Virus record (IMG/VR): IMGVR_UViG_2713897161_000005
Origin: a virus
Lineage: Duplodnaviria; Heunggongvirae; Uroviricota; Caudoviricetes
Length of the DNA: 45,139 nucleotides
Strand: one strand, 5' to 3'
Shown piece by piece: positions 2,859-37,625 of this stretch. Within the stretch, counting starts at the first letter, position 1; each line of letters starts with the position of its first letter. The translations under genes and the position numbers were made by a program. The notes beneath the pieces were generated by a model. It had not been told where the DNA came from and made no database searches. It saw only the letters and a list, made by a program, of their open reading frames with translations.

Positions 2859-3606
2859 NNNNNNNNNNNNNNNNNNNNNNNNNNNNNNNNNNNNNNNNNN
2901 NNNNNNNNNNNNNNNNNNNNNNNNNNNNNNNNNNNNNNNNNNNNNNNNNNNNNNNNNNNNNNNNNNNNNNNNNNNNNNNNNNNNNNNNNNNNNNNNNNNN
3001 NNNNNNNNNNNNNNNNNNNNNNNNNNNNNNNNNNNNNNNNNNNNNNNNNNNNNNNNNNNNNNNNNNNNNNNNNNNNNNNNNNNNNNNNNNNNNNNNNNNN
3101 NNNNNNNNNNNNNNNNNNNNNNNNNNNNNNNNNNNNNNNNNNNNNNNNNNNNNNNNNNNNNNNNNNNNNNNNNNNNNNNNNNNNNNNNNNNNNNNNNNNN
3201 NNNNNNNNNNNNNNNNNNNNNNNNNNNNNNNNNNNNNNNNNNNNNNNNNNNNNNNNNNNNNNNNNNNNNNNNNNNNNNNNNNNNNNNNNNNNNNNNNNNN
3301 NNNNNNNNNNNNNNNNNNNNNNNNNNNNNNNNNNNNNNNNNNNNNNNNNNNNNNNNNNNNNNNNNNNNNNNNNNNNNNNNNNNNNNNNNNNNNNNNNNNN
3401 NNNNNNNNNNNNNNNNNNNNNNNNNNNNNNNNNNNNNNNNNNNNNNNNNNNNNNNNNNNNNNNNNNNNNNNNNNNNNNNNNNNNNNNNNNNNNNNNNNNN
3501 NNNNNNNNNNNNNNNNNNNNNNNNNNNNNNNNNNNNNNNNNNNNNNNNNNNNNNNNNNNNNNNNNNNNNNNNNNNNNNNNNNNNNNNNNNNNNNNNNNNN
3601 NNNNNN
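2859..3606. other. N-run (748 nt, unresolved or masked sequence)
   Basis: Continuous n characters; ORFs crossing it are artefacts. Confidence 0.99.
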
Positions 3607-3660: not shown

Positions 3661-4532
3661 TATGCCGCCCTTACAATGTAGTTAAATGCGATGTTGCGCG
3701 GTCGGTTTTCGTTCGCGGTTCTTGCAACTAACGAAGAATCGATACCTATTGTCTTATAATATATGTATGAAGATGATTCCGTTGCACTTGCGTAATATGT
3801 GATTCCCGCCTCTCCAGTAATTGTTATGGCACCACTGCCGGATGCTGATGCCCCCATAGAGTTATCTGTAACAGTACCACTTATTTTTTGCATCGCGTCA
3901 CTTTGCTGTGAAAGTAACGCCCGCCCTGAATCCACATTGCGCCCATCATCCCACCCACGAATGAATTCGCCGCGTAAATCAGGCAATTTATTTGTCGGAT
4001 AAACCTTTGCCAGTTCCGGGTATTCTTCAGCAGAAAAAGCCGCACCGTTGCATTTCAGCCAGCCAGTAGGCGGTGTGGCTGAAGGCCACGGAACAGGCAC
4101 ACCAACGGGTAATGCCGAACCTTCTCCCAAACCAAGGTATGAAAGAATATCTTTCCACCCGGTACCATTACTGTTTGGATCAGATAGATTTCCTTCTGTT
4201 GTGTTAATGAATATTCTTTCCCCATCGTTCGAGATGAGCATCGCCCCTGACGGATATCCAGAAATCTCCGAAGCAAATTCAGAATCAAAAGTATTCAGCG
4301 CCCCGGTGCTCGACCATCTACCCAGAGCAGAAAGTTCGTATAAAATTTGGTTCATATCCTGGCCTTTTGGTGGCAAACCGCCAGCAGATTTCAGGATCAT
4401 TGTTATTGGAGGAAACCCCTGTTCATACGATGCTGAGTTATCTCCTGCAGGGGTGGTTGGCAATATTGCCACTCTCTGTCCATTAACTCCAAATGGCTTA
4501 GGTTGTTTTTTAGGTGAGTCAGAACGATTCAT
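3660..4532 (-). CDS. Tail fiber protein (phage tail collar domain)
   Basis: 290 aa; contains the collar-type motif LPDLRGEFIRGWDDGR; last gene of the baseplate/fiber block. Confidence 0.7.
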   Translation of the reverse strand: MNRSDSPKKQPKPFGVNGQRVAILPTTPAGDNSASYEQGFPPITMILKSAGGLPPKGQDMNQILYELSALGRWSSTGALNTFDSEFASEISGYPSGAMLISNDGERIFINTTEGNLSDPNSNGTGWKDILSYLGLGEGSALPVGVPVPWPSATPPTGWLKCNGAAFSAEEYPELAKVYPTNKLPDLRGEFIRGWDDGRNVDSGRALLSQQSDAMQKISGTVTDNSMGASASGSGAITITGEAGITYYASATESSSYIYYKTIGIDSSLVARTANENRPRNIAFNYIVRAA

Positions 4533-9491: not shown

Positions 9492-9710
9492 CTAGTTATC
9501 AAAAAGTCCGTACGTTTCTTCTTCAGGAGTAAGGGGAAGAATCTCAATTCTATCTATAGATACCTTTTCAATGTACCCATGAGGTCTACTTAAAATTAAA
9601 GCTCTCTCATGCCACAGAACTCCAAGAATGTGATACCTTCCAGCATCGCCTTTTACCCTGGCTCTTCCTTTGATTCTTGGCGGCATAATGCCATATTTTT
9701 TCTTTGCCAT
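9492..9710 (-). CDS. Hypothetical protein (72 aa, basic N-terminus)
   Basis: ORF MAKKKYGIMPPRIKGRARVKG...; last gene of the island operon before the terminator. Confidence 0.4.
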   Translation of the reverse strand: MAKKKYGIMPPRIKGRARVKGDAGRYHILGVLWHERALILSRPHGYIEKVSIDRIEILPLTPEEETYGLFDN

Positions 9711-10438
9711 TATGCAACATTACTCCCATGAACCAGGTGTTGTAGTGCTTTAACGCCTTCAGAATTGTAGCGGAATGCTTCCACCTGTTTGCTGGAATGC
9801 GCAGATTTATCCAGGAAGAACTTCCCGTACTGCTCAGTTTTGAGGTTGTTTGCGTTAGCAATGCGACCAATCTTGTTTGCCGTTACTCCAAGCTGCTCTG
9901 CGACCTCCCCTGCTGAGTAGTAATGCTCTTCTATTGCCGGAAGAGGTATTGCATTAAAACCAACGAGCGGGTTGATTATACTTGCTGCCGCTGTCTGCTT
10001 TGCCTCCGGCGCAAGATTTGGCATCAGATCGAACAGATTGGTAACAGCTTCAACCGTCATTTTCAATGTTCGCGCTTGACGATACTCAACAAGTCCACTC
10101 GACGATTTACCGCTTTTAATGTGCGCTTCTTGCATCCTTTCAAGTTGGTCTACAAGTGAGCGGCGAACAGCTTTAGATTCACGAGCAGCCACTCGAAGGG
10201 CTTGCTTAATTGACATAACAACTTTTTCAGAAGTTGTCTTGTTTGATTTTTGAACTACGAAAATTTCGTAGTGCTCACCTTCAAGTTCATCCTTAATGCG
10301 TGCAATAAAGTCGTTATTTCGAACTTCTTTTTCCCCGCACTGTCTACGAGCATGATTGACCATCTCTAACAGGTACTGGCTATCAATGGTTTTATCCGTG
10401 ACAACGGATCCGATGTTTGCTACATTCTTAAAAGTCAT
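9710..10438 (-). CDS. Antirepressor-like / phage regulatory protein (KilA-C-type C-terminal region, putative)
   Basis: Start at ATG 10438 (MTFKNVANIGS...) preceded by AAGGAA; C-terminal segment YSAGEVAEQLGVTANKIGRIANANNL resembles antirepressor DNA-binding regions (from memory). Confidence 0.45.
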   Translation of the reverse strand: MTFKNVANIGSVVTDKTIDSQYLLEMVNHARRQCGEKEVRNNDFIARIKDELEGEHYEIFVVQKSNKTTSEKVVMSIKQALRVAARESKAVRRSLVDQLERMQEAHIKSGKSSSGLVEYRQARTLKMTVEAVTNLFDLMPNLAPEAKQTAAASIINPLVGFNAIPLPAIEEHYYSAGEVAEQLGVTANKIGRIANANNLKTEQYGKFFLDKSAHSSKQVEAFRYNSEGVKALQHLVHGSNVA

Positions 10439-10475
10439 TAGGCATTCCTTATGTGGTAGTAAGGGTGTGACATAG

Positions 10476-10504
10476 GCCGCCAGCAGCACACTGGCGGTTT
10501 TTTT
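10476..10504 (+). terminator. GC-rich hairpin plus T7 tract, part of a three-segment alternative-pairing element
   Basis: GCCGCCAG(10476-83)/CTGGCGGT(10491-98) then TTTTTTT (10498-10504); a third copy ACCGCCAG at 10506-13 can pair alternatively. Lies between the two antirepressor-like genes. Confidence 0.4.
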
Positions 10505-10521
10505 CACCGCCAGATGCGTCA

Positions 10522-11445
10522 TTAATACAGATGAACAGAAGGCGGCAATTCTTTATTCTTAAGCCTTATCCATGCGGAAAGATTTGTTGGTCCGTCTGGC
10601 TCATTGATATCAACATCTCGTGTGTGGTTGATTAAAACGTCTCTCGCCGTTCCGATAACATACGAGAACTCATGACCGTAGTCGTAGCATCTGCCGGAAT
10701 AGTTCGATTGAATTTGTTTTAGCGCCGGATACAGTTCGCGGAATAATGCCTGTGAGCGGTTGGCATAATCCCATAGCCATACAAGGCTGTTTGCTTCTTT
10801 TGCAGAAAGCTCGTTGACTTTCCTCTCTTGTTTGCCGATGAACTCTCCTTCAAGCGGAACGCGAGCAGCAAGTGACAGTGCTTCGGTAAACTGCTCCTCA
10901 CTGATTTCTTTGTACGAACATCCAAAATGGGATTTCAGTGACGACCACATGGTGATCATCGCCTTAGCCTGTTTTTCTTTTGGCAGAGACTGACCGCGAC
11001 TCATGACGAGTTGTTTAATGGCTTCCTGCTGTTCAGTGGTAATTTTACCCGGCAACGCCTTTTTAGCTTTGCGTGGATTAACCACATGGCCTTTAGTCCA
11101 GTATTCGTAGAGCACATCGTCACACTCTTCCTGATACTGGATTACCTTGTCGCGGATTTCAGGGCGGACTTTGTTTGGTTGAATACTTGAAAGCCAAGCC
11201 GCAAATTTACGAAAGGCAAGACATGTCATTAACTGTTTACCGCCAGCAGAAGGTATTTCGATTTCCGAAATACCTTTGGCAAACCTTTGTTTTAACTTAA
11301 CAAATTGAGCAGCCCAAACCAGCCCCATGCCTTCAACAACAGGCCTCATAGGAACATAAGGCTCATTGTTAATTCCAACCAAAAACAGATTTGTTCCGTG
11401 GAATGGTACATTGATAGTAGATACCGCTGTTGCTATACTTTTCAT
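10522..11445 (-). CDS. Antirepressor (Ant-like), 307 aa
   Basis: Large ORF directly downstream of an Arc-like gene, as ant follows arc in P22 immI; N-terminal region looks antirepressor-like (from memory). Confidence 0.55.
   Translation of the reverse strand: MKSIATAVSTINVPFHGTNLFLVGINNEPYVPMRPVVEGMGLVWAAQFVKLKQRFAKGISEIEIPSAGGKQLMTCLAFRKFAAWLSSIQPNKVRPEIRDKVIQYQEECDDVLYEYWTKGHVVNPRKAKKALPGKITTEQQEAIKQLVMSRGQSLPKEKQAKAMITMWSSLKSHFGCSYKEISEEQFTEALSLAARVPLEGEFIGKQERKVNELSAKEANSLVWLWDYANRSQALFRELYPALKQIQSNYSGRCYDYGHEFSYVIGTARDVLINHTRDVDINEPDGPTNLSAWIRLKNKELPPSVHLY
11411..11439 (+). promoter_or_regulatory. Near-consensus sigma70 promoter antisense to ant (Psar-like)
   Basis: TTGATA (11411-16), 17-bp spacer, TATACT (11434-39); lies inside the first codons of ant on the opposite strand. 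Confidence 0.5.
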
Positions 11446-11518
11446 GTCAATATTTCCCGATCAGATTTGTTGATATAGAAGCCTCGCCAGTTCCCGCTGT
11501 CGGGGCTTCGTTATTTTT
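11446..11518 (+). ncRNA. Candidate sar-like antisense RNA (~70 nt) covering the ant RBS and arc-ant spacer
   Basis: Predicted start ~11446 from the promoter above; ends at a hairpin (11478-11509, GAAGCCUCG/CGGGGCUUC) followed by GUUAUUUUU. Same layout as P22 sar. Confidence 0.45.
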
Positions 11519-11678
11519 AGAGAGCATTCCGCATTTTCTCCCGGTACTTCAACCACCAAGCAAGTCCCTGAACCAACACTGAGTTTTCTGACATCCCCTC
11601 TTCCTTGGCGATGCGTTTCACCTCCTCCTTAAAACGGTACGGATACCGAAGAGTTGTCTTCACTTCATTCTTTTCCAT
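11517..11678 (-). CDS. arc: Arc-like ribbon-helix-helix repressor (53 aa)
   Basis: Uncalled small ORF with AAGGAG 7 nt upstream of ATG: MEKNEVKTTLRYPYRFKEEVKRIAKEEGMSENSVLVQGL...; matches the Arc pattern LRWPREV...ENGRSVNSEI. Confidence 0.55.
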   Translation of the reverse strand: MEKNEVKTTLRYPYRFKEEVKRIAKEEGMSENSVLVQGLAWWLKYREKMRNAL

Positions 11679-11700
11679 TGATCACTCCTTTTTACGTAAT

Positions 11701-11761
11701 GGCATTATGCCTTGAAAGCAATATGCCATCATTGAATATAAATAGCAATATGCCATCATTG
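11701..11761. promoter_or_regulatory. Divergent promoter/operator region between arc and mnt
   Basis: Two perfect 17-bp direct repeats GCAATATGCCATCATTG (11718-34, 11745-61); palindrome GGCATtATGCC (11701-11); TTGAAA(11712-17)...TATAAA candidate promoter toward mnt. Confidence 0.45.
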
Positions 11762-11780
11762 TTTTTTTTGAGGTGATGTT

Positions 11781-12101
11781 ATGGCTGAAAAACAGGTTAA
11801 AGATTACGAAAAGTTTGTTGTGCGTTTCCCTGACGGGATGAGGGACGCGATTGCGGAGAGAGCCAAACGAAACGGGCGCTCTATGAACTCAGAGATTGTG
11901 CAGATACTGGAAGATGCCTTGAATGCAGAAAATACTCTTGGGGAAATAGCAGACAAAATCAACAGCGTCTCGGTTCCGCTAAATGTTGATGCGCTAGTTC
12001 AACTTCAAGCCCAAGTGATCGCCATGCAAAAAGAAATACAGGAAAAATTCAGAGAGCAGAACGAAAAGTTGAGAGAACTGCTAAACAAAAAACCCACCTG
12101 A
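11781..12101 (+). CDS. mnt: Mnt-like ribbon-helix-helix repressor (106 aa)
   Basis: N-terminus FVVRFPDGMRDAIAERAKRNGRSMNSEIVQILEDAL matches the Mnt/Arc RHH pattern; GAGGTGA RBS; divergent from arc. Confidence 0.6.
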   Translation: MAEKQVKDYEKFVVRFPDGMRDAIAERAKRNGRSMNSEIVQILEDALNAENTLGEIADKINSVSVPLNVDALVQLQAQVIAMQKEIQEKFREQNEKLRELLNKKPT

Positions 12102-12112
12102 CGGTGGGTTTT
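12089..12112. terminator. Bidirectional intrinsic terminator between convergent mnt and the lipoprotein gene
   Basis: 10-bp stem AAAACCCACC/GGTGGGTTTT with 4-nt loop; T-rich on both strands; overlaps the mnt stop codon. Confidence 0.55.
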
Positions 12113-12135
12113 CATTACATATCAATTAATACCTA

Positions 12136-12798
12136 TTATCTTCTGATCGCTTTACGCCAATCCCCGGATAATCTAGATATATCCCAACACGACTGAACAA
12201 CTTCAGTAAAATACTCTCTATCCATTGGCGCGATTCCTGGCCAATCTTTCATTCGATTTACTAACGCATCTTTTGGTATGCCCTTCTTTTGATTCAAGGA
12301 GGTTTGTTCGCAAATCGCCCTTACCGCAGCATCATATTCAGCCTGAGCATAATGATTCACACTAAGAAGCACAGTGTATGCTGTTGAAAGTGAATTCATG
12401 GAAGATGAGAGTTCTTTCTTCCTCCGACACTCTTTATCAGCAAGGCATTTCTCTTCAGCTAGTTTTTTTTCCGCTCTCTTCTTGTTATTGAAGGCGTTAA
12501 TCCCAGAATCATAAGCGTTAGCCCATACATTGTAATAACACTCTCCATCCCAGCCGCATTGCGTGGTATCTGGAGCGACAAGAATCATCCCTGTTTTTTT
12601 TAGATAATCATTTTTAAGCCTATTAACAGTCCATGACTCTCCGCTTTTTGCTACATACTCTTTATCACCGAATTCGCTTTGCTGTTGCTGAGTGGTTGGT
12701 GGGGTTATCGAACACCCGTACAATAAAGAAGCAGAAAGAATCAAGAGAAAGTGTGATTTTATTTTTCTTACACATTCACCACGATTAATTAATGCCAT
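12136..12798 (-). CDS. Putative lipoprotein / secreted Cys-rich protein (220 aa), accessory gene
   Basis: Signal-peptide-like N-terminus with lipobox-like LLYGC; AGGAG RBS; AT-rich by eye; sits beside mnt where P22 carries sieA. Confidence 0.5.
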   Translation of the reverse strand: MALINRGECVRKIKSHFLLILSASLLYGCSITPPTTQQQQSEFGDKEYVAKSGESWTVNRLKNDYLKKTGMILVAPDTTQCGWDGECYYNVWANAYDSGINAFNNKKRAEKKLAEEKCLADKECRRKKELSSSMNSLSTAYTVLLSVNHYAQAEYDAAVRAICEQTSLNQKKGIPKDALVNRMKDWPGIAPMDREYFTEVVQSCWDISRLSGDWRKAIRR

Positions 12799-13624: not shown

Positions 13625-15439
13625 CTAAGGCATTGCACTAGAAAATGCCGCGTTTGTTGACACCCGGCTAACTTGCTGATTGACACTTCTGGTAAGAGCA
13701 TCAACTGTTGTCGGGTTACTGTTAACAACAACCGTGCCAATAGTTGTACTGCTGCTACGACTGTTGTCAATTTTTGATGTTGTCTGGCTTGGTGTTGAAG
13801 CGATGCGTTGCTGCTGCTGATAGTAAGCCAGCGTCTCGTTTTCTTTTGCATTAAGAGCGGCGCGAATCTTTGGCACATATTCTCGCGTCTCTTTCGGTAA
13901 GGTGTTCCAGTATTTGGATGATGGTGAATCAAACCCGGTACTGGATATGTATTTTAACTTTTTGTCTACATTGCCCATCCCCCAGTTGTAAGCCATCAGC
14001 GCATGGTTAACATTGCCTTTATAGTGCTTTAGCAAATCCCTCATGAACCTTTCAGCAGCAGCGCGAGATTTTACCTCATCAAGACGCTCATCAATCCCAT
14101 CACCGACCTTTAACCCGTACGCTATGGCAGTATCCTTCATGAACTGATACGGACCAACAGCACCTTTCGGGCTGTAAAGTTTTTTACCACCACTCGATTC
14201 CACCTCACGAATGGCATCAAGAAGAGAATCCATGCTTACAGGCTTTACTCCGTCAGGGAGAGGGATATCTGGCTGAATGTTATTGCCATAAATCTCATCT
14301 CCCCTACGCCCAAAATCGGTGTCAAACCCCATGCTGCGCATGGTATCTCCAAGTTCACGCTTAGAGTAATCAAACGATCCTTTAGCTGCACCCTCAATGT
14401 TTTCCCTGTCATTGTAGAGGTACAAACCATATGCTATTAACCCAGCCAACCATGGAGGAAGGGCACCGCCTGTAAGTTTGCTTCCTACATATGCTGCTGC
14501 CAATAGCTTCAGAGCCTCTTCCGCGCCACCAACTGCCTTTGTGAATTGCTTCGTCATATTCCCGGCGTCATTGAAAAAGCCAATGATGTCGCCATGATGT
14601 TTCTCAATCCAGGAACCAAAAGCCTTCATCCCGTCAATAACGTCTGGAGCGAATGCCATGGCTAAATTTTGCTTTAATCGGGAAAACTCTGAATCAAGTT
14701 GACCAAGAGTGGCGGCAACCTTCTCCTGCTCTTTTACCTGCTGTGCGCTAATACGGGATTTCTTTGTTTCTGAATCGACAAGCTGCTTAAGTTCCCCTGA
14801 TTTTATTTTAGCGGCATCTGTCGGATCGAACCCTGCGGCCGCCATCACCTGCATCAGGTTTTCTTGAGAATGAGTCTTGCCATAGCGAGAAAACTCAGCA
14901 AGAGCCTTGTTTGGGTCACCGAGCTTATTGATATCTAATCCGGTACGAGCGCCAAGAACCAGCAAATTTTGGGCAGCGCCAGTAAGCCCCCCCATAACAG
15001 TTGGATCGGCAATATTTGCCAAAGCCATTCTGGCATTCCCAGAAGATGAAATGAACGAGTCACCGTTAAGACCAGCCTGGCGAAATCCCCGCTGAACACC
15101 AAACATCTTATTAACATCAGAACCGAAAAACTTGGCCTGTTGACTGGCTCTCACGATTTCGTTGGCAGTAGATGTAAAAAGTTGCTTGATTCCATACAAC
15201 CCGGCGCCAATTCCCAAAAATCCAGCGGCTGCGGTTGTCACGTTGCGGAAAGCTGAAACAGCGGTTTTACCGAACCTCTCCGTTTCCTGCCGCTGTTTTT
15301 CAAGTTCCTTTAGCCTTTCCTTCTCAGCCCTGGAAAGATCTTTGTTTAATTTACTAACTTCATCTTTTACTTTCCGTTTTCCATTCAGGAATTCATCGGC
15401 CTTAATTGTGACCTTGTAGGCCAACTCATTGATAATCAT
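13625..15439 (-). CDS. Tail tape measure protein with lytic transglycosylase-like region
   Basis: 604 aa, N-terminal coiled-coil-like region; C-proximal EVESSGGKK...GPYQFMKDTA...AYNWGMG resembles SLT catalytic motifs (ES...AYNxG). Confidence 0.7.
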   Translation of the reverse strand: MIINELAYKVTIKADEFLNGKRKVKDEVSKLNKDLSRAEKERLKELEKQRQETERFGKTAVSAFRNVTTAAAGFLGIGAGLYGIKQLFTSTANEIVRASQQAKFFGSDVNKMFGVQRGFRQAGLNGDSFISSSGNARMALANIADPTVMGGLTGAAQNLLVLGARTGLDINKLGDPNKALAEFSRYGKTHSQENLMQVMAAAGFDPTDAAKIKSGELKQLVDSETKKSRISAQQVKEQEKVAATLGQLDSEFSRLKQNLAMAFAPDVIDGMKAFGSWIEKHHGDIIGFFNDAGNMTKQFTKAVGGAEEALKLLAAAYVGSKLTGGALPPWLAGLIAYGLYLYNDRENIEGAAKGSFDYSKRELGDTMRSMGFDTDFGRRGDEIYGNNIQPDIPLPDGVKPVSMDSLLDAIREVESSGGKKLYSPKGAVGPYQFMKDTAIAYGLKVGDGIDERLDEVKSRAAAERFMRDLLKHYKGNVNHALMAYNWGMGNVDKKLKYISSTGFDSPSSKYWNTLPKETREYVPKIRAALNAKENETLAYYQQQQRIASTPSQTTSKIDNSRSSSTTIGTVVVNSNPTTVDALTRSVNQQVSRVSTNAAFSSAMP

Positions 15440-15654
15440 CGCTGCTCCTGATGTTTATTCCAGACCCGCTTGTTAAATGATTCCACCGAGATAATTTCCA
15501 GAAGGTTATACATATCACGAACAGATAACCGTTCCTGTAAATCGGTATAAGTGGCTTTTCCTGAACAGATAATGGCGTTCATTGATGGTGTGACGTTTAC
15601 GGGGTTAACGAGTTTTGCCGGAAGAGTCTCCTCCTCCATGAACGGGTACTTCAC
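15436..15654 (-). CDS. Tail assembly chaperone, frameshift-extension ORF (T-like part)
   Basis: 72-aa ORF in the -1 frame relative to the upstream 135-aa ORF; lacks a good independent ATG (track start is GTG at 15654). Confidence 0.45.
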   Translation of the reverse strand: MKYPFMEEETLPAKLVNPVNVTPSMNAIICSGKATYTDLQERLSVRDMYNLLEIISVESFNKRVWNKHQEQR

Positions 15655-16058
15655 TCTCCGGCGATCGTTAAAAAATCAAAATTGACTTTAAATACCTTAT
15701 CCATTACCTGACGAATGGTTGATACCTCTTCAAAGTCGACAGGCTTCACGGTTCGCACCTGTCTGCTGCCTTCGTGTGTAATCACAATTTGCACAGTTGA
15801 CATCAGGCGATCACGCAGTTTTCTGGCAACTTCCGGCGATGCGGCAGAAAGAACATTCAGACCAAGGGTGGCAAGGCCAGCACACCCCATGGCAATCACA
15901 TCAGCAGGAATACCAGAGAATCCCGATTCCCCCATGGAGCGGAATAAATCCTGTGCCAGTTCGTCGGCATCCCATGCCGACATCTCTGTGATAATGAACT
16001 CTTTCCCATTGTCGCGATTATCGTCTTCCACGATAAAGGGGATTTCTTTACGTGCCAT
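15651..16058 (-). CDS. Tail assembly chaperone (G-like, 135 aa)
   Basis: Position between the tail tube and tape measure genes, with the frameshift partner downstream. Confidence 0.5.
   Translation of the reverse strand: MARKEIPFIVEDDNRDNGKEFIITEMSAWDADELAQDLFRSMGESGFSGIPADVIAMGCAGLATLGLNVLSAASPEVARKLRDRLMSTVQIVITHEGSRQVRTVKPVDFEEVSTIRQVMDKVFKVNFDFLTIAGE
15669..15675 (-). promoter_or_regulatory. Candidate -1 ribosomal frameshift slippery heptamer U_UUU_UUA
   Basis: Minus-strand GAT TTT TTA gives X_XXY_YYZ = T_TTT_TTA in the zero frame, 5 codons before the 135-aa ORF stop; the -1 frame continues into the 72-aa ORF. Confidence 0.5.
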
Positions 16059-16492
16059 CAGATAGTGCTCCGTGTTACAGACTCAAAGTGAAATACTGCC
16101 GGGCGTGGTTGCAGTACGCGCCGACCCGGAGGGGTTGGAGTCCATGTATAAAGAACCCCGTTCACAAAATTCCACTTCGCGCCGAGAGCTGGAACTGTAA
16201 GCACCGCATTACACTGAAACGCTGAAATTGCAGTTCTCTCCGCTGCATACCAGTCATCAATCAGCGAGCCAGCATTGGATGTGGGCATCAGGTTGATGGT
16301 GAACTCTGTCGGGTTAAAGATAAAACCAGCATGGTATTTACCGTCCGCTGACATCATGTCTTCTTTGTTCTGTAACGCACCAGTTTCAAACATGTTATCA
16401 GCTGCGTAGTCGTCAACATCAAAACCGCCAGGGTAGTAAGCGGGTACAACGATTCGCAGCTTACTGTTTGCCGAGGTAATATCGATAGGCAT
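16058..16492 (-). CDS. Tail tube protein (putative)
   Basis: 144-aa ORF directly downstream of the sheath gene in the conserved sheath-tube order. Confidence 0.5.
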   Translation of the reverse strand: MPIDITSANSKLRIVVPAYYPGGFDVDDYAADNMFETGALQNKEDMMSADGKYHAGFIFNPTEFTINLMPTSNAGSLIDDWYAAERTAISAFQCNAVLTVPALGAKWNFVNGVLYTWTPTPPGRRVLQPRPAVFHFESVTRSTI

Positions 16493-16503
16493 GATTTATT
16501 CCC

Positions 16504-17994
16504 TTATAAAATCGCGGTTGAGGACATTGTGATGGACTGAATAAGTTGCCCATCGACATAATAGAAAATGACACCTTTCAGGTCGCGCTCAATGCGTGCA
16601 GAGCCTGACTGTGTCGGGATGTACAGGAACCAGCCCTGTGAATACAGCGTCGATGAGATATCTTTTCCAACTGTGTTATTCACAATTCTGGTTTGCGCAT
16701 TATCAAGTTTCACGCCACGCTGAATAGCCCCGAAATTGAGAGCCTGTTCAGCAACATCAATAACAGCAGCAGAAACTGCGCCGTATCCTGTCTCATTGAA
16801 CGGGTAAGACTGGTTATTGGTGAACAGGTTAGCAAAAGCACTAACCAGATTGGCATTAATCCATACCTGATTAATAAAACTGTCCAGCCATACAAACTTG
16901 CCAGTAATGGCACCATCAGATGCGTACTGCGCCATTGTTTTGTTCAGGCTGTATGAGCCGTAGAAGTTGTAACCGTTTGATTTCAGTGCCTGAGCGGTCG
17001 CCAGATCGCTTACGTTGGGTGCTAACCCTGAAAATCCACGGAACTTGAACGAGATACGCCCATTGGTGCGTGCAAAATCCACGGATGCAGCATATGCCAG
17101 TGCTGTAACGCTATACAGGTATGTTCCGTACACCGGAAAAATGTTCTCGTAGCCATTTGCCACAACCACTTTCTGCACAAAGCAATTTGCATTATTGGCT
17201 ACCGTTCCTGCTGAAGTGGTATCGTGAACAACATATCCAAACCGGTTTTTACTGCTGCTTGCCCATGCGCACAATTCTGTTTTCTGGTCATCGGTCAGTT
17301 CGACCAGCGAGTTAAACAGGATCCAGTTCTGGTTGACGTTGATGATGTTGTTCATCGTGTCTGTCAGCGTTACCGCATCATAACCCGGTGATACAATCGC
17401 TGCGGAATCCTGCGTAAGTAACAACCCGGTAGCCAGAGCGCCAGCAGAGGCATAAGACACTTCACTCTCTGCGCCAGTAGTGGCAGAGCGAATGATGAAT
17501 CGGTTAGCTATTGGCAACCATTCAACCACCACCTTGCTTGCACCAATTCCAACCTGCAACTTGGACGCAATGTCGCTAAAACTTGTGGCTGTGGACAAAT
17601 CAATTGATGTGCTGGTAGTCGACTCACCGTCAATGGAAAGGGTGATTGTTCCTGCTGGAATCGCTTTCAGTGTTGCCAGGGTAACACCTTTCAGGTTGCC
17701 GGACAGAAGATACCCAGCCACTGGTGAAGTAACAATACGATACATCAGCAGTTCACCAGGAATAACGGATGAGTTTTCGTATCCGTTAAAATACTGTTGT
17801 GCTGCGAGGAATTCTTTCGATTCACTCCCCATCAAAGCTGATACATCAGATGAGGAGTAATAAGATTGTACCGCGCCAACCGGGATAAGCTCGTTATCGG
17901 TCAACATCAGGCCGTTAGCATCAACCGCAGAACCGGCAGGCGTAACGACATTGGGCGTGATATTAAAATCTACAGATAAAGGGATTGTGCTCAT
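16504..17994 (-). CDS. Tail sheath protein (putative)
   Basis: 496-aa ORF; size and position typical of contractile tail sheath. Confidence 0.6.
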   Translation of the reverse strand: MSTIPLSVDFNITPNVVTPAGSAVDANGLMLTDNELIPVGAVQSYYSSSDVSALMGSESKEFLAAQQYFNGYENSSVIPGELLMYRIVTSPVAGYLLSGNLKGVTLATLKAIPAGTITLSIDGESTTSTSIDLSTATSFSDIASKLQVGIGASKVVVEWLPIANRFIIRSATTGAESEVSYASAGALATGLLLTQDSAAIVSPGYDAVTLTDTMNNIINVNQNWILFNSLVELTDDQKTELCAWASSSKNRFGYVVHDTTSAGTVANNANCFVQKVVVANGYENIFPVYGTYLYSVTALAYAASVDFARTNGRISFKFRGFSGLAPNVSDLATAQALKSNGYNFYGSYSLNKTMAQYASDGAITGKFVWLDSFINQVWINANLVSAFANLFTNNQSYPFNETGYGAVSAAVIDVAEQALNFGAIQRGVKLDNAQTRIVNNTVGKDISSTLYSQGWFLYIPTQSGSARIERDLKGVIFYYVDGQLIQSITMSSTAIL

Positions 17995-23639: not shown

Positions 23640-24458
23640 TCATTTTCTATCTATCCCAGGGATAACAGGAGACCACGTACAACGGCAGTTGATAGCCTCT
23701 CCCGGCAGCACCCATTCACCATCAAGATACAGCCCTTTATCGAGGTCGAACTCTTTACCGTCAGCTTTCACATGGGATGGCCTTGGCTGCTTCCCGGCGT
23801 GTGAGTGACGCCAGATTCCTTTGGTGATGCCTAACTTCTTCTGCCGTTCAGACTGAATTACCGCTGTAGCTTTGTTGTTCTGATCGCGTGCGATCGTCTC
23901 AGCGCGTCTGCGTGTAATGCCATATCGCTTAACCAGTTCATCAGTGAGATAGCCAAGGTCACGACCACGGCTGACAGACTGCATGACTATCGTCTCAACC
24001 TGTGTGTGATAGTGTTCAGGTATGGATTTAATCAGGTTGACGTTCTCGTTAACGACAGCCTGCATCACGTTCTTAAGCTCGTCATTCATTGTGAACTTAA
24101 CGGTAAATCCGCCAGCCTTTAACGCTGAGTGTAACGAAACGTCGGTGTTGCGCAGTGTCTTATCAACGAAGCGATCAGCCAGTTTCTTAGCCAGTTCATT
24201 GAATTTATGCTCCCACTGCTTGCCTAGTCTGGACAATCTGCGCTTTAACTCATTCGCGGGACTGGAATCCATCGCCATGTTGTTTTTGTATGCGCCCTCA
24301 AGCCAGTATCGGTATGACTTATCCATCTCCCTAACCAGTTTGAGAAGCTCAGAGCGATACCACTCATGAACTCCGGCATTAGCTCTGACTGGACGAAGGG
24401 TTTTCCGGGTCTTCGAATCCTTCTTCGACGGACTCGTTTTCGTGCTCTTCTTCGTCAT
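23640..24458 (-). CDS. Head morphogenesis protein (Mu gpF-like)
   Basis: 272 aa; C-terminal region typical of the Mu F / SPP1 gp7 minor head family (from memory); downstream of portal. Confidence 0.6.
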
Positions 24459-28678: not shown

Positions 28679-29560
28679 NNNNNNNNNNNNNNNNNNNNNN
28701 NNNNNNNNNNNNNNNNNNNNNNNNNNNNNNNNNNNNNNNNNNNNNNNNNNNNNNNNNNNNNNNNNNNNNNNNNNNNNNNNNNNNNNNNNNNNNNNNNNNN
28801 NNNNNNNNNNNNNNNNNNNNNNNNNNNNNNNNNNNNNNNNNNNNNNNNNNNNNNNNNNNNNNNNNNNNNNNNNNNNNNNNNNNNNNNNNNNNNNNNNNNN
28901 NNNNNNNNNNNNNNNNNNNNNNNNNNNNNNNNNNNNNNNNNNNNNNNNNNNNNNNNNNNNNNNNNNNNNNNNNNNNNNNNNNNNNNNNNNNNNNNNNNNN
29001 NNNNNNNNNNNNNNNNNNNNNNNNNNNNNNNNNNNNNNNNNNNNNNNNNNNNNNNNNNNNNNNNNNNNNNNNNNNNNNNNNNNNNNNNNNNNNNNNNNNN
29101 NNNNNNNNNNNNNNNNNNNNNNNNNNNNNNNNNNNNNNNNNNNNNNNNNNNNNNNNNNNNNNNNNNNNNNNNNNNNNNNNNNNNNNNNNNNNNNNNNNNN
29201 NNNNNNNNNNNNNNNNNNNNNNNNNNNNNNNNNNNNNNNNNNNNNNNNNNNNNNNNNNNNNNNNNNNNNNNNNNNNNNNNNNNNNNNNNNNNNNNNNNNN
29301 NNNNNNNNNNNNNNNNNNNNNNNNNNNNNNNNNNNNNNNNNNNNNNNNNNNNNNNNNNNNNNNNNNNNNNNNNNNNNNNNNNNNNNNNNNNNNNNNNNNN
29401 NNNNNNNNNNNNNNNNNNNNNNNNNNNNNNNNNNNNNNNNNNNNNNNNNNNNNNNNNNNNNNNNNNNNNNNNNNNNNNNNNNNNNNNNNNNNNNNNNNNN
29501 NNNNNNNNNNNNNNNNNNNNNNNNNNNNNNNNNNNNNNNNNNNNNNNNNNNNNNNNNNNN
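28679..29560. other. N-run (882 nt, unresolved or masked) between the lysis cassette and packaging genes
   Basis: Continuous n characters; ORFs crossing it are artefacts. Confidence 0.99.
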
Positions 29561-34080: not shown

Positions 34081-34720
34081 NNNNNNNNNNNNNNNNNNNN
34101 NNNNNNNNNNNNNNNNNNNNNNNNNNNNNNNNNNNNNNNNNNNNNNNNNNNNNNNNNNNNNNNNNNNNNNNNNNNNNNNNNNNNNNNNNNNNNNNNNNNN
34201 NNNNNNNNNNNNNNNNNNNNNNNNNNNNNNNNNNNNNNNNNNNNNNNNNNNNNNNNNNNNNNNNNNNNNNNNNNNNNNNNNNNNNNNNNNNNNNNNNNNN
34301 NNNNNNNNNNNNNNNNNNNNNNNNNNNNNNNNNNNNNNNNNNNNNNNNNNNNNNNNNNNNNNNNNNNNNNNNNNNNNNNNNNNNNNNNNNNNNNNNNNNN
34401 NNNNNNNNNNNNNNNNNNNNNNNNNNNNNNNNNNNNNNNNNNNNNNNNNNNNNNNNNNNNNNNNNNNNNNNNNNNNNNNNNNNNNNNNNNNNNNNNNNNN
34501 NNNNNNNNNNNNNNNNNNNNNNNNNNNNNNNNNNNNNNNNNNNNNNNNNNNNNNNNNNNNNNNNNNNNNNNNNNNNNNNNNNNNNNNNNNNNNNNNNNNN
34601 NNNNNNNNNNNNNNNNNNNNNNNNNNNNNNNNNNNNNNNNNNNNNNNNNNNNNNNNNNNNNNNNNNNNNNNNNNNNNNNNNNNNNNNNNNNNNNNNNNNN
34701 NNNNNNNNNNNNNNNNNNNN
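34081..34720. other. N-run (640 nt, unresolved or masked) inside the nin region
   Basis: Continuous n characters. Confidence 0.99.
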
Positions 34721-35744: not shown

Positions 35745-37625
35745 TTAATACTCCGTCACGTTTTCCTGTCGCCACGCCTCGTCATATTCCGATTTCGGCA
35801 TATTGGCGATGTAGCTATATGGAGATCCTGATTCAAGTTGCAGGAACTGGTGCGATTGCTCGTCAAGGAACAACGGGACACCACCTTCCCAACCTTCGCC
35901 GTTACGTTGTTTTTCGAGCATTAAAACAGATGCCGGAGATGCCAGTAGCTGTTCGTCCTTCTCTGACATCTTTTCACCACTCTGAACTCTCTGTAACGCT
36001 CTCTCGCGAGCCTTGTTACGCCAGATGATGAAAAGGTTGTCTGTCAGGTCTGTTATCGCTCCAGAGCCTTTTACGTCCATTTTCCCGGTTGGTTTTTCTT
36101 CGCTGTCTCCTTTTCGCGAGTGAGTAACGAGAATGACGTGGGAGTTTGTTTTGTTTTTGAAGTCACAAATCGAGTCAACAAATGCTTTCTGCCCGTTATA
36201 GTCATCGTCGCCTATGCCACATTTCATCAGGCTGTCGATGATGAATAACTGGATCCCGTATCGGCGGCGAGCGTAGTCGAATATTTCGATCAGCCTGTCG
36301 GCTTTCGCCGTTCCGGTCAGGCCAAACACCCAAAGTCTTTCGTCATAAAATTTAAATGCAGAGTCAATTTCCAGCACTGGCGGCATCTTGCAGCACGTCG
36401 CCTGACGGGTAAGGCGCTTAAGGAGAATACCAGGCTTCAGCTCAAGTGACGCGATGCACGTCTTCACACCCTGACGCATTGCCTCAAGTGCCATATGCCC
36501 GACAACCTCCGTTTTTCCGTGACCGTTCACACCATTGACCAGCGTCAACTCTGCCTCACGGAACTGGAATTTATCTGCCAGAGATTCCCACGGTGGATTA
36601 AACAGATACTGCTGCTTGCCGTAGAAAGCGTTGATAGTGTCCTGGTAAAACTCTCGCGCGCTGTAGAGTTCTTCAGGATCGAAGTAGGATGCCGTGCCGA
36701 TGTACTGCCAGATTTCATCCTCGGTAACACCGTTCATCAGGCATTCGTTGATGTCCTTGTACGGCAGAGTAACAAGACGGCAACGATGTTCACCGAGTCG
36801 GCTTGCGATTTCCCTTGCGGCTTCACGACCAACATCATCAACGTCCATCGAGATGAATATTTCCTCAAACCTGTCGAGGTTGTGATACTCAAACTCAATC
36901 CACTGTTGCTTAGCGCCTTTCCCGCCACCAAACGGCACGGATAACGCCGAGATGCCGTATTGCGCATAGCTCATACAATCAATTTCGCCTTCGCAAAGTA
37001 CAACCGCCCTCACGCCAGCGTCCAGAGCCTGCCATCCGAACAGACAAGGTTCGCAATCACCTTCTGCCATAATGACTTTCTTCCCGTCCGGGCGCTCAGT
37101 GCTGATTCGCTTGACCTGCAACAACTCACCATCGCGTTTGTACGGAATCACCAGAGCATCCAGTTCTCGCTCTCCATTCCACACCTTGCCGCTGACAACC
37201 TCGTAGCGCTTTACGATTTCTGGAGATATGCCACGCGATTGCAGGTACTCAAGATGGGATTCTGTTCTGGTAACGTAGCGGGCGATTTTCTTGCGGTCAG
37301 GTCTGGAGAATTTCTTCTCACGTCTGGCATCGAAATGGTGATCGTCATCCTTGATACCGAGAAATGCTTTCGCTTCCTGCATAGCCTGATGCAGGTTAAT
37401 CCCACGACATGCCATCCACAAATCAAGCATGTCACCGCCGTCTCCCTCAGCGAAATCAGCCCATTTTTTCTTGCCGCTAAGGTTGACCTTAAGGCTGTTT
37501 CCCTTGTCACCGTTGACGTTACCGGCAACCCACTCATGCCCCTCTTTTTTGCCGTTTGGCAACAGGTGCGGAGCCACCCTGTCAACCTGCGACCAAAGCA
37601 GGTCGCTGAGTTCACTTGGCGTCAT
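35745..37625 (-). CDS. Replicative primase-helicase (Toprim-like N-terminal half, DnaB-like ATPase C-terminal half)
   Basis: 626 aa; Walker A GVNGHGKT in the C-terminal half; occupies the lambda P position downstream of O. Confidence 0.65.
   Translation of the reverse strand: MTPSELSDLLWSQVDRVAPHLLPNGKKEGHEWVAGNVNGDKGNSLKVNLSGKKKWADFAEGDGGDMLDLWMACRGINLHQAMQEAKAFLGIKDDDHHFDARREKKFSRPDRKKIARYVTRTESHLEYLQSRGISPEIVKRYEVVSGKVWNGERELDALVIPYKRDGELLQVKRISTERPDGKKVIMAEGDCEPCLFGWQALDAGVRAVVLCEGEIDCMSYAQYGISALSVPFGGGKGAKQQWIEFEYHNLDRFEEIFISMDVDDVGREAAREIASRLGEHRCRLVTLPYKDINECLMNGVTEDEIWQYIGTASYFDPEELYSAREFYQDTINAFYGKQQYLFNPPWESLADKFQFREAELTLVNGVNGHGKTEVVGHMALEAMRQGVKTCIASLELKPGILLKRLTRQATCCKMPPVLEIDSAFKFYDERLWVFGLTGTAKADRLIEIFDYARRRYGIQLFIIDSLMKCGIGDDDYNGQKAFVDSICDFKNKTNSHVILVTHSRKGDSEEKPTGKMDVKGSGAITDLTDNLFIIWRNKARERALQRVQSGEKMSEKDEQLLASPASVLMLEKQRNGEGWEGGVPLFLDEQSHQFLQLESGSPYSYIANMPKSEYDEAWRQENVTEY

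What the first reader, a model, noticed from the sequence alone, without database searches (positions are those of the whole stretch)
15436..16058. Programmed -1 frameshift site joining the two tail assembly chaperone ORFs
A canonical slippery heptamer U_UUU_UUA (minus strand, 15669-15675) lies five codons before the stop of the 135-aa ORF. The -1 frame then runs straight into the 72-aa ORF, which has no good start of its own. This matches the conserved G/GT frameshift upstream of tape measure genes in dsDNA phages.
Basis: partly seen in the sequence, partly recalled or inferred. Interest (0 to 1): 0.5.

Follow-up and report, generated by a model that had tools for sequence, protein, structure and literature searches.

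The report
Tail chaperone −1 frameshift site, confirmed
This is the usual programmed −1 ribosomal frameshift that lets a tailed phage (here an E. coli prophage with a contractile tail) make a short and a long tail assembly chaperone from one start codon; it is real and conserved but ordinary, and databases have not annotated it in this phage lineage.

Summary
On the minus strand a 135-aa ORF (16058..15651) contains T_TTT_TTA (15675..15669) in the X_XXY_YYZ register, five sense codons before its stop. The −1 frame opens exactly at the heptamer and runs to 15436, overlapping the start of the tape-measure gene (ATGA). The predicted fusion protein is 207 aa.

The gene order is sheath, tube, G/GT, tape measure. 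The 135-aa protein matches a PHROG tail-assembly-chaperone family (E 5e-52).

One heptamer alone is weak evidence (about 2.6% by chance). Conservation is decisive. In 82 distinct homologous genes (54–100% protein identity), the site reads NNT TTT TTA in 80. Elsewhere in the same genes TTT is 41% of Phe codons and TTA 6.7% of Leu codons. The −1 peptide is conserved from the first residue after the site. In 22 of 61 distinct versions it has no start codon in its first 30 codons.

Distant relatives keep the arrangement with other slippery sites (G_GGT_TTT, A_AAA_A). A hairpin 6 nt downstream has only weak, clade-limited support.

Verdict: a new, unannotated member of the known lambda G/GT and P2 E/E+E' class. 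Low interest.

The parts
15651..16058 (-). G: the zero-frame tail assembly chaperone ORF, 135 aa, ATG 16058 to TGA 15653-15651. Its start overlaps the tube gene's stop (TGATG).
15669..15675 (-). Slippery heptamer T_TTT_TTA (U_UUU_UUA in the mRNA). The P-site codon is UUU (Phe129) and the A-site codon is UUA (Leu130).
   Evidence: for frame and register. The site reads NNT TTT TTA in 80 of 82 distinct homologous genes and in the codon contexts listed.
15651..15678 (-). Frameshift zone: the 25-nt overlap 15675-15651, bounded by the -1 frame stop TGA (15678-15676) and the zero-frame stop TGA (15653-15651).
   Evidence: the -1 frame opens at 15675. No other XXXYYYZ motif lies in this zone (row WIN).
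15436..15669 (-). T segment: 77 codons in the -1 frame (NDRRRVKYPF...HQEQR) plus the stop TGA 15438-15436. It is read after the ribosome slips back one base and re-reads A15669. The stop overlaps the tape-measure gene's start (ATGA).
   Evidence: PHROG 3976, E 1.7e-15. PHROGs 18181 and 4774 (170-177 aa profiles) align across the junction of the fusion. The peptide is conserved in 61 distinct versions.
15617..15662 (-). Candidate stimulatory hairpin: GCCGGAGAG (15662-15654), a 27-nt loop, then CTCTTCCGGC (15626-15617), starting 6 nt after the heptamer. Tentative.
   Evidence: Minimum free energy about -19 kcal/mol but no better than shuffles, z -0.5. 95% of cells paired in 29 enterobacterial sequences, with one compensatory pair A-U to G-C in 6 of them. 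Absent in the Edwardsiella, Vibrio and Yersinia clades.
16058..16492 (-). Tail tube gene, 144 aa, immediately upstream.
   Evidence: Pfam E217_Gp32, E 5.5e-17.
16504..17994 (-). Tail sheath gene, 496 aa.
   Evidence: Pfam DUF3383, E 5.8e-107. PHROG 205 'tail sheath'.
13625..15439 (-). Tape-measure-like 'lytic tail protein', 604 aa, with an SLT transglycosylase domain at residues 402-498. Immediately downstream.
   Evidence: PHROG 2013, E 1e-190, plus tape-measure PHROGs 9570 and 2276. Pfam SLT.

Best explanation
This is the programmed -1 ribosomal frameshift site of the prophage's tail assembly chaperone gene.

Most ribosomes read the 135-aa ORF to its stop and make the short chaperone, G. A minority pause with tRNA-Phe on UUU and tRNA-Leu on UUA. 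Both tRNAs slip one base back onto UUU_UUU. Translation then continues in the -1 frame (AAC GAU CGC...) for 77 more codons, giving the 207-aa GT protein.

By analogy with lambda G/GT and P2 E/E+E', the shared G part would coat the tape-measure protein and the T part would recruit the tube protein. The fixed low slip frequency would set the G:GT ratio needed for tail assembly.

Shown here: the anatomy, the gene context, nucleotide-level conservation of the site, conservation of the -1 peptide, and the lack of a conserved start. Inferred: that the shift happens, its efficiency (expected to be a few percent), the protein interactions, and any role of the downstream hairpin.
For: - Anatomy and register.
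- Gene order sheath, tube, G/T, tape measure.
- G is a tail-assembly-chaperone family protein: PHROG 1932, E 5e-52. Its model has weak fold similarity to the HK97 chaperone and to YqbN.
- Site conservation in 82 distinct homologous gene sequences. The Phe codon is TTT in 82 of 82, against 41% elsewhere in the same genes. The Leu codon is TTA in 81 of 82, against 6.7% elsewhere. The preceding codon ends in T in 81 of 82, whether it encodes D, G, N or S. The Phe codon two positions upstream splits 47 TTC to 35 TTT.
- tblastn with the fusion finds Edwardsiella phages GF-2 and Edno5 and Vibrio phage IKEMa6-1 as two pieces in two frames, with the same heptamer.
- The -1 peptide is conserved from the first residue after the site (xxRRRVK[YF]P...). 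In 22 of 61 distinct versions there is no ATG, GTG or TTG in its first 30 codons. The window's GTG is GTA in 48 of 61, and its ATG codon encodes L or I in 38 of 61.
- A 210-aa metagenomic homologue (P0029) is a single-frame G-T fusion joined at exactly this point.
- Distant relatives keep the arrangement with other slippery sites: Burkholderia phage PE067 has G_GGT_TTT one codon upstream, and a Citrobacter clade has CTA AAA ATA.
- P2 uses TTTTTTG in the same gene position (PMC3091744). The lambda G/GT mechanism, and the low shiftiness of U_UUU_UUA in E. coli, are described in PMC5009743.
Against: - There is no protein-level evidence; everything rests on sequence.
- U_UUU_UUA is much less shift-prone in E. 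coli than A_AAA_AAG (PMC5009743). That fits a low G:GT ratio but means the shift could be very rare.
- The downstream hairpin is no more stable than shuffled controls and is absent in several clades.
- A subclade has A_TTT_TTA, in which P-site re-pairing is imperfect.
- The window's own sequence offers a GTGA stop-start overlap and an ATG that gene callers use.
- The Pfam chaperone match is below its threshold.
Confidence: 0.9

Rival explanations
1. The T ORF is translated independently. It would start either at ATG 15639, as PGAP annotates, or by termination-reinitiation at the GTGA overlap (GTG 15654 / TGA 15653-15651). The result would be a free 67-72-aa protein and no fusion.
For: The window has both GTG 15654 and ATG 15639. 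RefSeq annotates a 67-aa hypothetical protein at this position in E. coli TW10590, and a 48-aa one in GF-2 and Edno5.
Against: - Neither start is conserved. The valine codon is GTA in 48 of 61 distinct relatives, and the Met position is L or I in 38 of 61.
- 22 of 61 have no start codon at all in the first 30 codons, yet the peptide is conserved from the residue after the heptamer.
- GGAG lies 16 nt upstream of the ATG, which is poor spacing.
- This model does not explain why TTT and TTA are invariant against the local codon usage.
- The in-frame fusion homologue P0029, and PHROG profiles that span the junction, also argue against it.
Confidence: 0.04
2. The two frames are joined by transcriptional slippage. 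RNA polymerase would add one U in the T6 run, so that a fraction of the mRNAs encode GT in a single frame.
For: A one-base insertion in the T run gives the same -1 frame product, with Phe instead of Leu at the junction. One metagenomic relative (L005) has a 9-T run, a length at which polymerase slippage is known to occur (general knowledge, PMC5009743).
Against: - From established knowledge, six T's are shorter than the runs (about 8-9 or more) that give appreciable slippage by E. coli RNA polymerase.
- The seventh base is constrained (A in 81 of 82, G in 1 of 82), as tRNA re-pairing requires.
- Relatives use sites with no long homopolymer, G_GGT_TTT and CTA AAA ATA. These fit ribosomal slippage only.
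Confidence: 0.04
3. The heptamer and the open -1 frame are coincidental, or the T region is a decaying remnant, and only G is functional.
For: For this sequence alone the chance of an in-frame XXXYYYZ motif in the overlap is about 2.6%. TTTTTTA is not enriched in the window.
Against: The heptamer is conserved in 80 of 82 distinct genes against codon bias. The 77-80-codon -1 ORF is intact and conserved as protein from E. coli to Vibrio and Burkholderia phages.
Confidence: 0.02

Closest known systems
Bacteriophage P2 E / E+E' -1 frameshift (Christie et al. 2002; as described in PMC3091744)
   Same: Contractile-tail phage of enterobacteria. The gene order is sheath, tube, two overlapping chaperone ORFs, tape measure. 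The -1 shift occurs at a run of six T's plus a purine (P2 TTTTTTG; here TTTTTTA, and TTTTTTG in relative L073). The second ORF has no start of its own. No obligatory downstream structure is known.
   Different: No detectable sequence homology to P2 gpE: Pfam gives only a sub-threshold Phage_TAC_15 match. The proteins are larger (135/207 aa against 91/142 aa). The tail module is of the E217/PB1 type (DUF3383 sheath, E217_Gp32 tube). A clade-specific hairpin candidate lies 6 nt downstream.
Bacteriophage lambda G / GT frameshift and the conserved tail-chaperone frameshift of dsDNA phages (Levin et al. 1993; Xu, Hendrix & Duda 2004; summarised in PMC5009743)
   Same: Two chaperone products share an N-terminus and arise by a low-level -1 shift near the end of the first ORF, just upstream of the tape-measure gene. 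The arrangement is conserved despite sequence divergence.
   Different: Lambda has a non-contractile tail and a different slippery sequence (G_GGA_AAG, from my own knowledge). The interactions shown for lambda (G with the tape measure gpH, T with the tail protein gpV) are only assumed here.
HIV-1 gag-pol slippery site U_UUU_UUA
   Same: Identical heptamer. The same tRNA logic applies (Phe on UUU, Leu on UUA). The junction residue may be a mix of Leu and Phe, as reported for HIV (PMC5009743).
   Different: Eukaryotic ribosomes, a well-defined downstream stem-loop stimulator, and unrelated genes. The resemblance concerns the mechanism only.

Membership tests
Tail assembly chaperone G/GT programmed -1 frameshift (Xu, Hendrix & Duda 2004 class) | Two overlapping ORFs lie between the major tail/tube gene and the tape-measure gene. 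| tested here: met
   Sheath 17994-16504, tube 16492-16058, G 16058-15651, T 15669-15436, tape-measure/SLT protein 15439-13625.
Tail assembly chaperone G/GT programmed -1 frameshift (Xu, Hendrix & Duda 2004 class) | The second ORF is in the -1 frame relative to the first and lacks a conserved initiation site. | tested here: met
   for the frame; 22 of 61 distinct relatives have no ATG, GTG or TTG in the first 30 codons, and the window's GTG and ATG are not conserved.
Tail assembly chaperone G/GT programmed -1 frameshift (Xu, Hendrix & Duda 2004 class) | A slippery sequence lies in the correct register inside the overlap. | tested here: met
   T_TTT_TTA at 15675-15669 is the only XXXYYYZ motif in the 25-nt overlap.
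Tail assembly chaperone G/GT programmed -1 frameshift (Xu, Hendrix & Duda 2004 class) | The arrangement and the site are conserved among relatives beyond what coding needs. | tested here: met
   80 of 82 distinct genes read NNT TTT TTA, although TTT is 41% of Phe codons and TTA 6.7% of Leu codons elsewhere in the same genes. Distant phages keep the two-ORF arrangement with other slippery sites.
Tail assembly chaperone G/GT programmed -1 frameshift (Xu, Hendrix & Duda 2004 class) | The first ORF encodes a protein of a tail-assembly-chaperone family or fold. | tested here: inconclusive
Tail assembly chaperone G/GT programmed -1 frameshift (Xu, Hendrix & Duda 2004 class) | Two proteins, G and GT, are made from one start in a fixed ratio, and both are needed for tail assembly but absent from virions. 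| not testable with these tools
   This needs a western blot, mass spectrometry or genetics.
P2 GpE / E+E' protein family | Sequence homology to P2 gpE. | tested here: not met
   The Pfam scan of G and GT returned only Phage_TAC_15 and no P2 GpE family. The resemblance lies in gene position and in the T6-purine site (PMC3091744), not in protein family.
-1 frameshift cassettes with cis stimulators (dnaX / IS type) | A stable downstream hairpin or pseudoknot lies 5-9 nt after the heptamer and is supported by covariation. | tested here: inconclusive
   A hairpin starts 6 nt downstream at -18.8 kcal/mol, but its z-score is -0.5 against shuffles. In 29 enterobacterial sequences 95% of cells pair, 5 of 9 pairs never vary, and one pair shows a compensatory change in 6 sequences. 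No equivalent exists in the Edwardsiella, Vibrio or Yersinia clades.
-1 frameshift cassettes with cis stimulators (dnaX / IS type) | An upstream Shine-Dalgarno-like stimulator lies about 10-14 nt before the site. | tested here: not met
   Read directly from the sequence. The nearest AGG (in GAT AAG GTA) lies 19 nt upstream and is explained by the conserved D-K/Q-V coding.

The most novel reading that the evidence does not exclude
The lineage may be a natural series of interchangeable recoding solutions at one homologous position:

- T_TTT_TTA in most members.
- A_TTT_TTA, with imperfect P-site re-pairing, in an Enterobacter/Citrobacter subclade.
- CTA_AAA_ATA, a possible single-tRNA-Lys slip ahead of the rare AUA codon, in Citrobacter freundii prophages.
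- G_GGT_TTT in Burkholderia phages.
- A 9-T run that puts G and T in one frame in a metagenomic phage. There the short G product could arise only by polymerase slippage or a shift out of frame, which inverts the usual logic.

In addition, the enterobacterial clade may have acquired a genuine stimulatory hairpin, which is reported to be rare for phage tail-chaperone frameshifts.
Probability: 0.12. Interest if true: 0.4.

Novelty: new member of a known kind. Interest (0 to 1): 0.2.

Why it matters
The main value is for annotation. In this prophage lineage (E. coli and other Enterobacteriaceae) and in Gofduovirus phages GF-2 and Edno5, the database records examined list G and a truncated T as two separate hypothetical proteins. 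The likely real product is a 207-aa fusion, and a joined CDS should be annotated.

The family also offers a clean comparative data set. A strictly conserved U_UUU_UUA site has a few natural variants, which could be used to measure how slippery-site identity sets the chaperone ratio in contractile-tail phages. It does not change the understanding of frameshifting or of tail assembly.

Tried and rejected
- Megablast of the region against the phage collection found nothing. tblastn with the fusion protein was needed.
- My first chance calculation was corrupted by three masked N runs in the window. I redid it without them.
- Folding the downstream RNA gave a hairpin in the window that is no better than shuffled sequence. 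There is no common structure in the GF-2, Edno5 or Vibrio phage sequences. I therefore did not accept the hairpin as a required stimulator.
- I found no convincing upstream Shine-Dalgarno-like stimulator.
- The profile search of the PDB by sequence gave no relative.
- The single-sequence AlphaFold model of the in-frame GT homologue P0029 was unusable, pLDDT 42. The fold of the T domain therefore remains unknown.
- Alignment A3, meant to give depth for the T part, misplaced the T peptide and was dropped.
- The other heptamers flagged in the window are not frameshift candidates. A_AAC_CCT at 24397-24403, near the portal stop, has a -1 'extension' that is simply the overlapping next gene, the head morphogenesis gene starting at 24458. 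The AAAAAAG and AAAAAAT motifs at 37463-37550 lie in a spurious ORF nested in a longer gene.
Full report
**1. Observation**

Reading the minus strand and translating it confirms every detail of the finding.

- The 135-aa ORF starts at ATG 16058, which overlaps the stop of the upstream gene (TGATG). It ends at TGA 15653-15651.
- Its last codons are AAT TTT GAT TTT TTA ACG ATC GCC GGA GAG TGA. TTTTTTA at 15675-15669 is therefore in the X_XXY_YYZ register, with UUU in the P site and UUA in the A site, five sense codons before the stop.
- In the -1 frame a TGA (15678-15676) lies immediately before the heptamer. The frame is then open to TGA 15438-15436, which overlaps the ATG of the next gene (ATGA).
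- A frame change can therefore join the two ORFs only within 25 nt, and TTTTTTA is the only XXXYYYZ motif there.
- The predicted fusion is 130 + 77 = 207 aa, with the junction ...VNFDFL|NDRRRVKYPF...

**2. Is it more than chance?**

Taken alone, only modestly. TTTTTTA occurs 12 times in the window against 11.2 expected. In-frame XXXYYYZ motifs occupy 0.37% of codon positions in long ORFs, so a 7-position zone has one about 2.6% of the time (one search was spoiled by masked N runs).

The comparative evidence is what counts.

**3. What the genes are**

The operon on the minus strand runs as follows:

- large terminase, portal, head morphogenesis protein, protease and major head protein;
- sheath (17994-16504; DUF3383, the E217 gp31 type);
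- tube (16492-16058; E217_Gp32);
- the two ORFs in question;
- a 604-aa 'lytic tail protein' with tape-measure-like N-terminal part and an SLT transglycosylase domain (15439-13625).

The 72-aa ORF matches PHROG 3976 (unknown function). PHROGs 18181 and 4774, with profiles of 170-177 aa, align across the junction of the fusion.

**4. Where it comes from**

The region is 98% identical to prophages in 20 of 5,426 complete E. coli genomes. Its nearest isolated relatives are the Gofduovirus phages Edwardsiella GF-2 and Edno5 (65% identity to the fusion protein) and Vibrio phage IKEMa6-1 (60%). In each of these, tblastn finds the fusion as two pieces in two frames.

None of the annotated records examined marks a frameshift (the Vibrio phage record has no annotation at all). 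They list a chaperone or hypothetical protein plus a short hypothetical ORF that starts at an internal ATG.

**5. Conservation**

I collected 96 homologous loci from genomes and viral contigs and analysed them in register.

Among 82 distinct gene sequences (54-100% protein identity):

- The Phe codon at the site is TTT in 82 of 82. Elsewhere in these genes TTT is 41% of Phe codons.
- The Leu codon is TTA in 81 of 82 and TTG in one. Elsewhere TTA is 6.7% of Leu codons.
- The preceding codon ends in T in 81 of 82, whether it encodes Asp, Gly, Asn or Ser (GAT, GGT, AAT, AGT, TCT).
- By contrast, the Phe codon two positions upstream splits 47 TTC to 35 TTT, and the neighbouring Asn codon varies between AAT and AAC.

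This is selection on the nucleotides of the heptamer, not on the protein. These sequences are related to one another, so the counts are not independent events. The variation at flanking synonymous sites nevertheless shows that there has been ample time for change.

**6. The -1 peptide**

The -1 peptide is conserved along its whole length, beginning with the residues directly after the heptamer (xxRRRVK[YF]P[FY]...).

- Of 61 distinct versions, 22 have no ATG, GTG or TTG in the first 30 codons.
- The window's GTG is GTA in 48 of 61.
- The window's Met codon encodes Leu or Ile in 38 of 61.

Independent initiation, or stop-start coupling at the window's GTGA, therefore cannot be the general way this peptide is made.

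The zero-frame tail after the site is short (usually five codons) and varies in sequence and length.

A 210-aa metagenomic homologue (P0029, locus L005) carries G and T in a single frame, joined at exactly this point through a run of nine T's.

**7. Variants and distant relatives**

- Burkholderia phage PE067 keeps the same two-ORF layout and a homologous T domain. It uses G_GGT_TTT one codon upstream.
- Klebsiella phage ST15-VIM1phi2.1 keeps the layout with no canonical heptamer (GCT TTT GTA).
- An Enterobacter/Citrobacter subclade has GAA TTT TTA, that is A_TTT_TTA.
- Citrobacter freundii prophages have replaced the T run by CTA AAA ATA. There, tRNA-Lys could slip on A_AAA ahead of the rare AUA codon; this is my inference.

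Persistence of the arrangement while the slippery sequence changes is the hallmark described for the G/GT class (Xu et al. 2004, as summarised in PMC5009743 and PMC3091744).

**8. Stimulators**

A hairpin starts 6 nt after the heptamer: GCCGGAGAG, a 27-nt loop, then CUCUUCCGGC, at about -19 kcal/mol. That spacing is typical of stimulatory structures, but the hairpin is no more stable than shuffled sequence (z -0.5).

In 29 distinct enterobacterial sequences:

- 95% of cells pair;
- five of nine pairs never vary;
- one pair changes A-U to G-C on both sides in six sequences;
- the bulged third-codon position varies freely.

The Edwardsiella, Vibrio and Yersinia clades have nothing equivalent. 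I rate the hairpin as possible and clade-specific, not established.

No Shine-Dalgarno-like element lies at the expected upstream distance.

P2 and its relatives also lack a downstream structure (PMC3091744).

**9. Mechanism**

The best explanation is tandem -1 slippage of tRNA-Phe and tRNA-Leu on U_UUU_UUA. It would give a minority 207-aa GT product beside the 135-aa G product.

U_UUU_UUA is much less shift-prone in E. coli than A_AAA_AAG (PMC5009743). This fits the low GT fraction needed in lambda (G:GT of about 30:1), while P2's efficiency is reported as two- to three-fold higher than lambda's (PMC5009743). As at the HIV site, the junction residue may be a mixture of Leu and Phe.

The roles of the two parts, G on the tape measure and T recruiting the tube protein, are taken by analogy from lambda (PMC5009743) and are untested here.

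Transcriptional slippage on six T's cannot be excluded from sequence. It is disfavoured by the short run, by the constrained seventh base, and by relatives whose sites have no homopolymer.

**10. Comparison and novelty**

The system works like P2 E/E+E':

- a contractile tail;
- the same gene position;
- an almost identical site (TTTTTTG in P2).

It belongs to the lambda G/GT class. It is not a sequence-family member of P2 gpE.

It is a new, unannotated member of a well-known kind. Interest is low and lies mainly in correcting annotation. There is a small bonus in the natural series of site variants and the possible clade-specific hairpin.

Noticed in passing
window 2859-3606, 28679-29560, 34081-34720: Three runs of N (masked sequence) lie inside the window. 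They create artificial long ORFs and spoiled my first motif statistics.
   Followed up: partly
L005 about 4385-4400 (ENA metagenome scaffold; protein P0029): This homologue has AGT TTT TTT TTC, a run of nine T's, which places G and T in one 210-aa frame. With eight T's it would be a normal G plus a -1 T with a T_TTT_TTT site. It is either a homopolymer assembly error or a real in-frame/transcriptional-slippage variant.
   Followed up: partly
L103-L105 1880-1911 (Citrobacter freundii prophages; protein P0088): The T run is replaced by TTC CTA AAA ATA, while the -1 T domain stays intact (KNRRRVKYPF...). This may be a single-tRNA-Lys slip ahead of the rare AUA codon. These loci also carry an HNH endonuclease gene inserted between the T ORF and the tape-measure gene. 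L101 has one between the sheath and tube genes.
   Followed up: partly
L033, L099-L102 (Enterobacter/Citrobacter prophages; proteins P0015, P0022): This subclade has GAA TTT TTA (A_TTT_TTA), so the first base of the heptamer is lost. The -1 frame still opens exactly there and the T domain is intact.
   Followed up: partly
window 9710-12798 (minus strand): Anti-repressor (Ant) genes and a gene of unknown function sit inside the tail gene cluster, between the genes next to the tape-measure gene and the baseplate genes. Edno5 and GF-2 have Arc-like repressor and Ant genes at the same place. This looks like an immI-like regulatory insert.
   Followed up: no
window 24379-24458 (minus strand): The portal gene (25914-24379) and the head morphogenesis gene (24458-23640) overlap by 80 nt in different frames. 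An A_AAC_CCT motif lies five codons before the portal stop. PHROG 30637 (1119 aa) matches both the portal and the protease, which hints at fused versions elsewhere. I judged this an ordinary gene overlap.
   Followed up: partly
window 13625-15439 (minus strand): The tape-measure-like protein is short (604 aa) and carries an SLT lytic transglycosylase domain at residues 402-498. The relatives show the same arrangement.
   Followed up: no
window 15671-15689 (minus strand): A weak A/U-rich hairpin (AAAGUCA / UGAUUUU) is predicted to pair the first U's of the heptamer with upstream sequence (fifth fold). It is probably meaningless.
   Followed up: no
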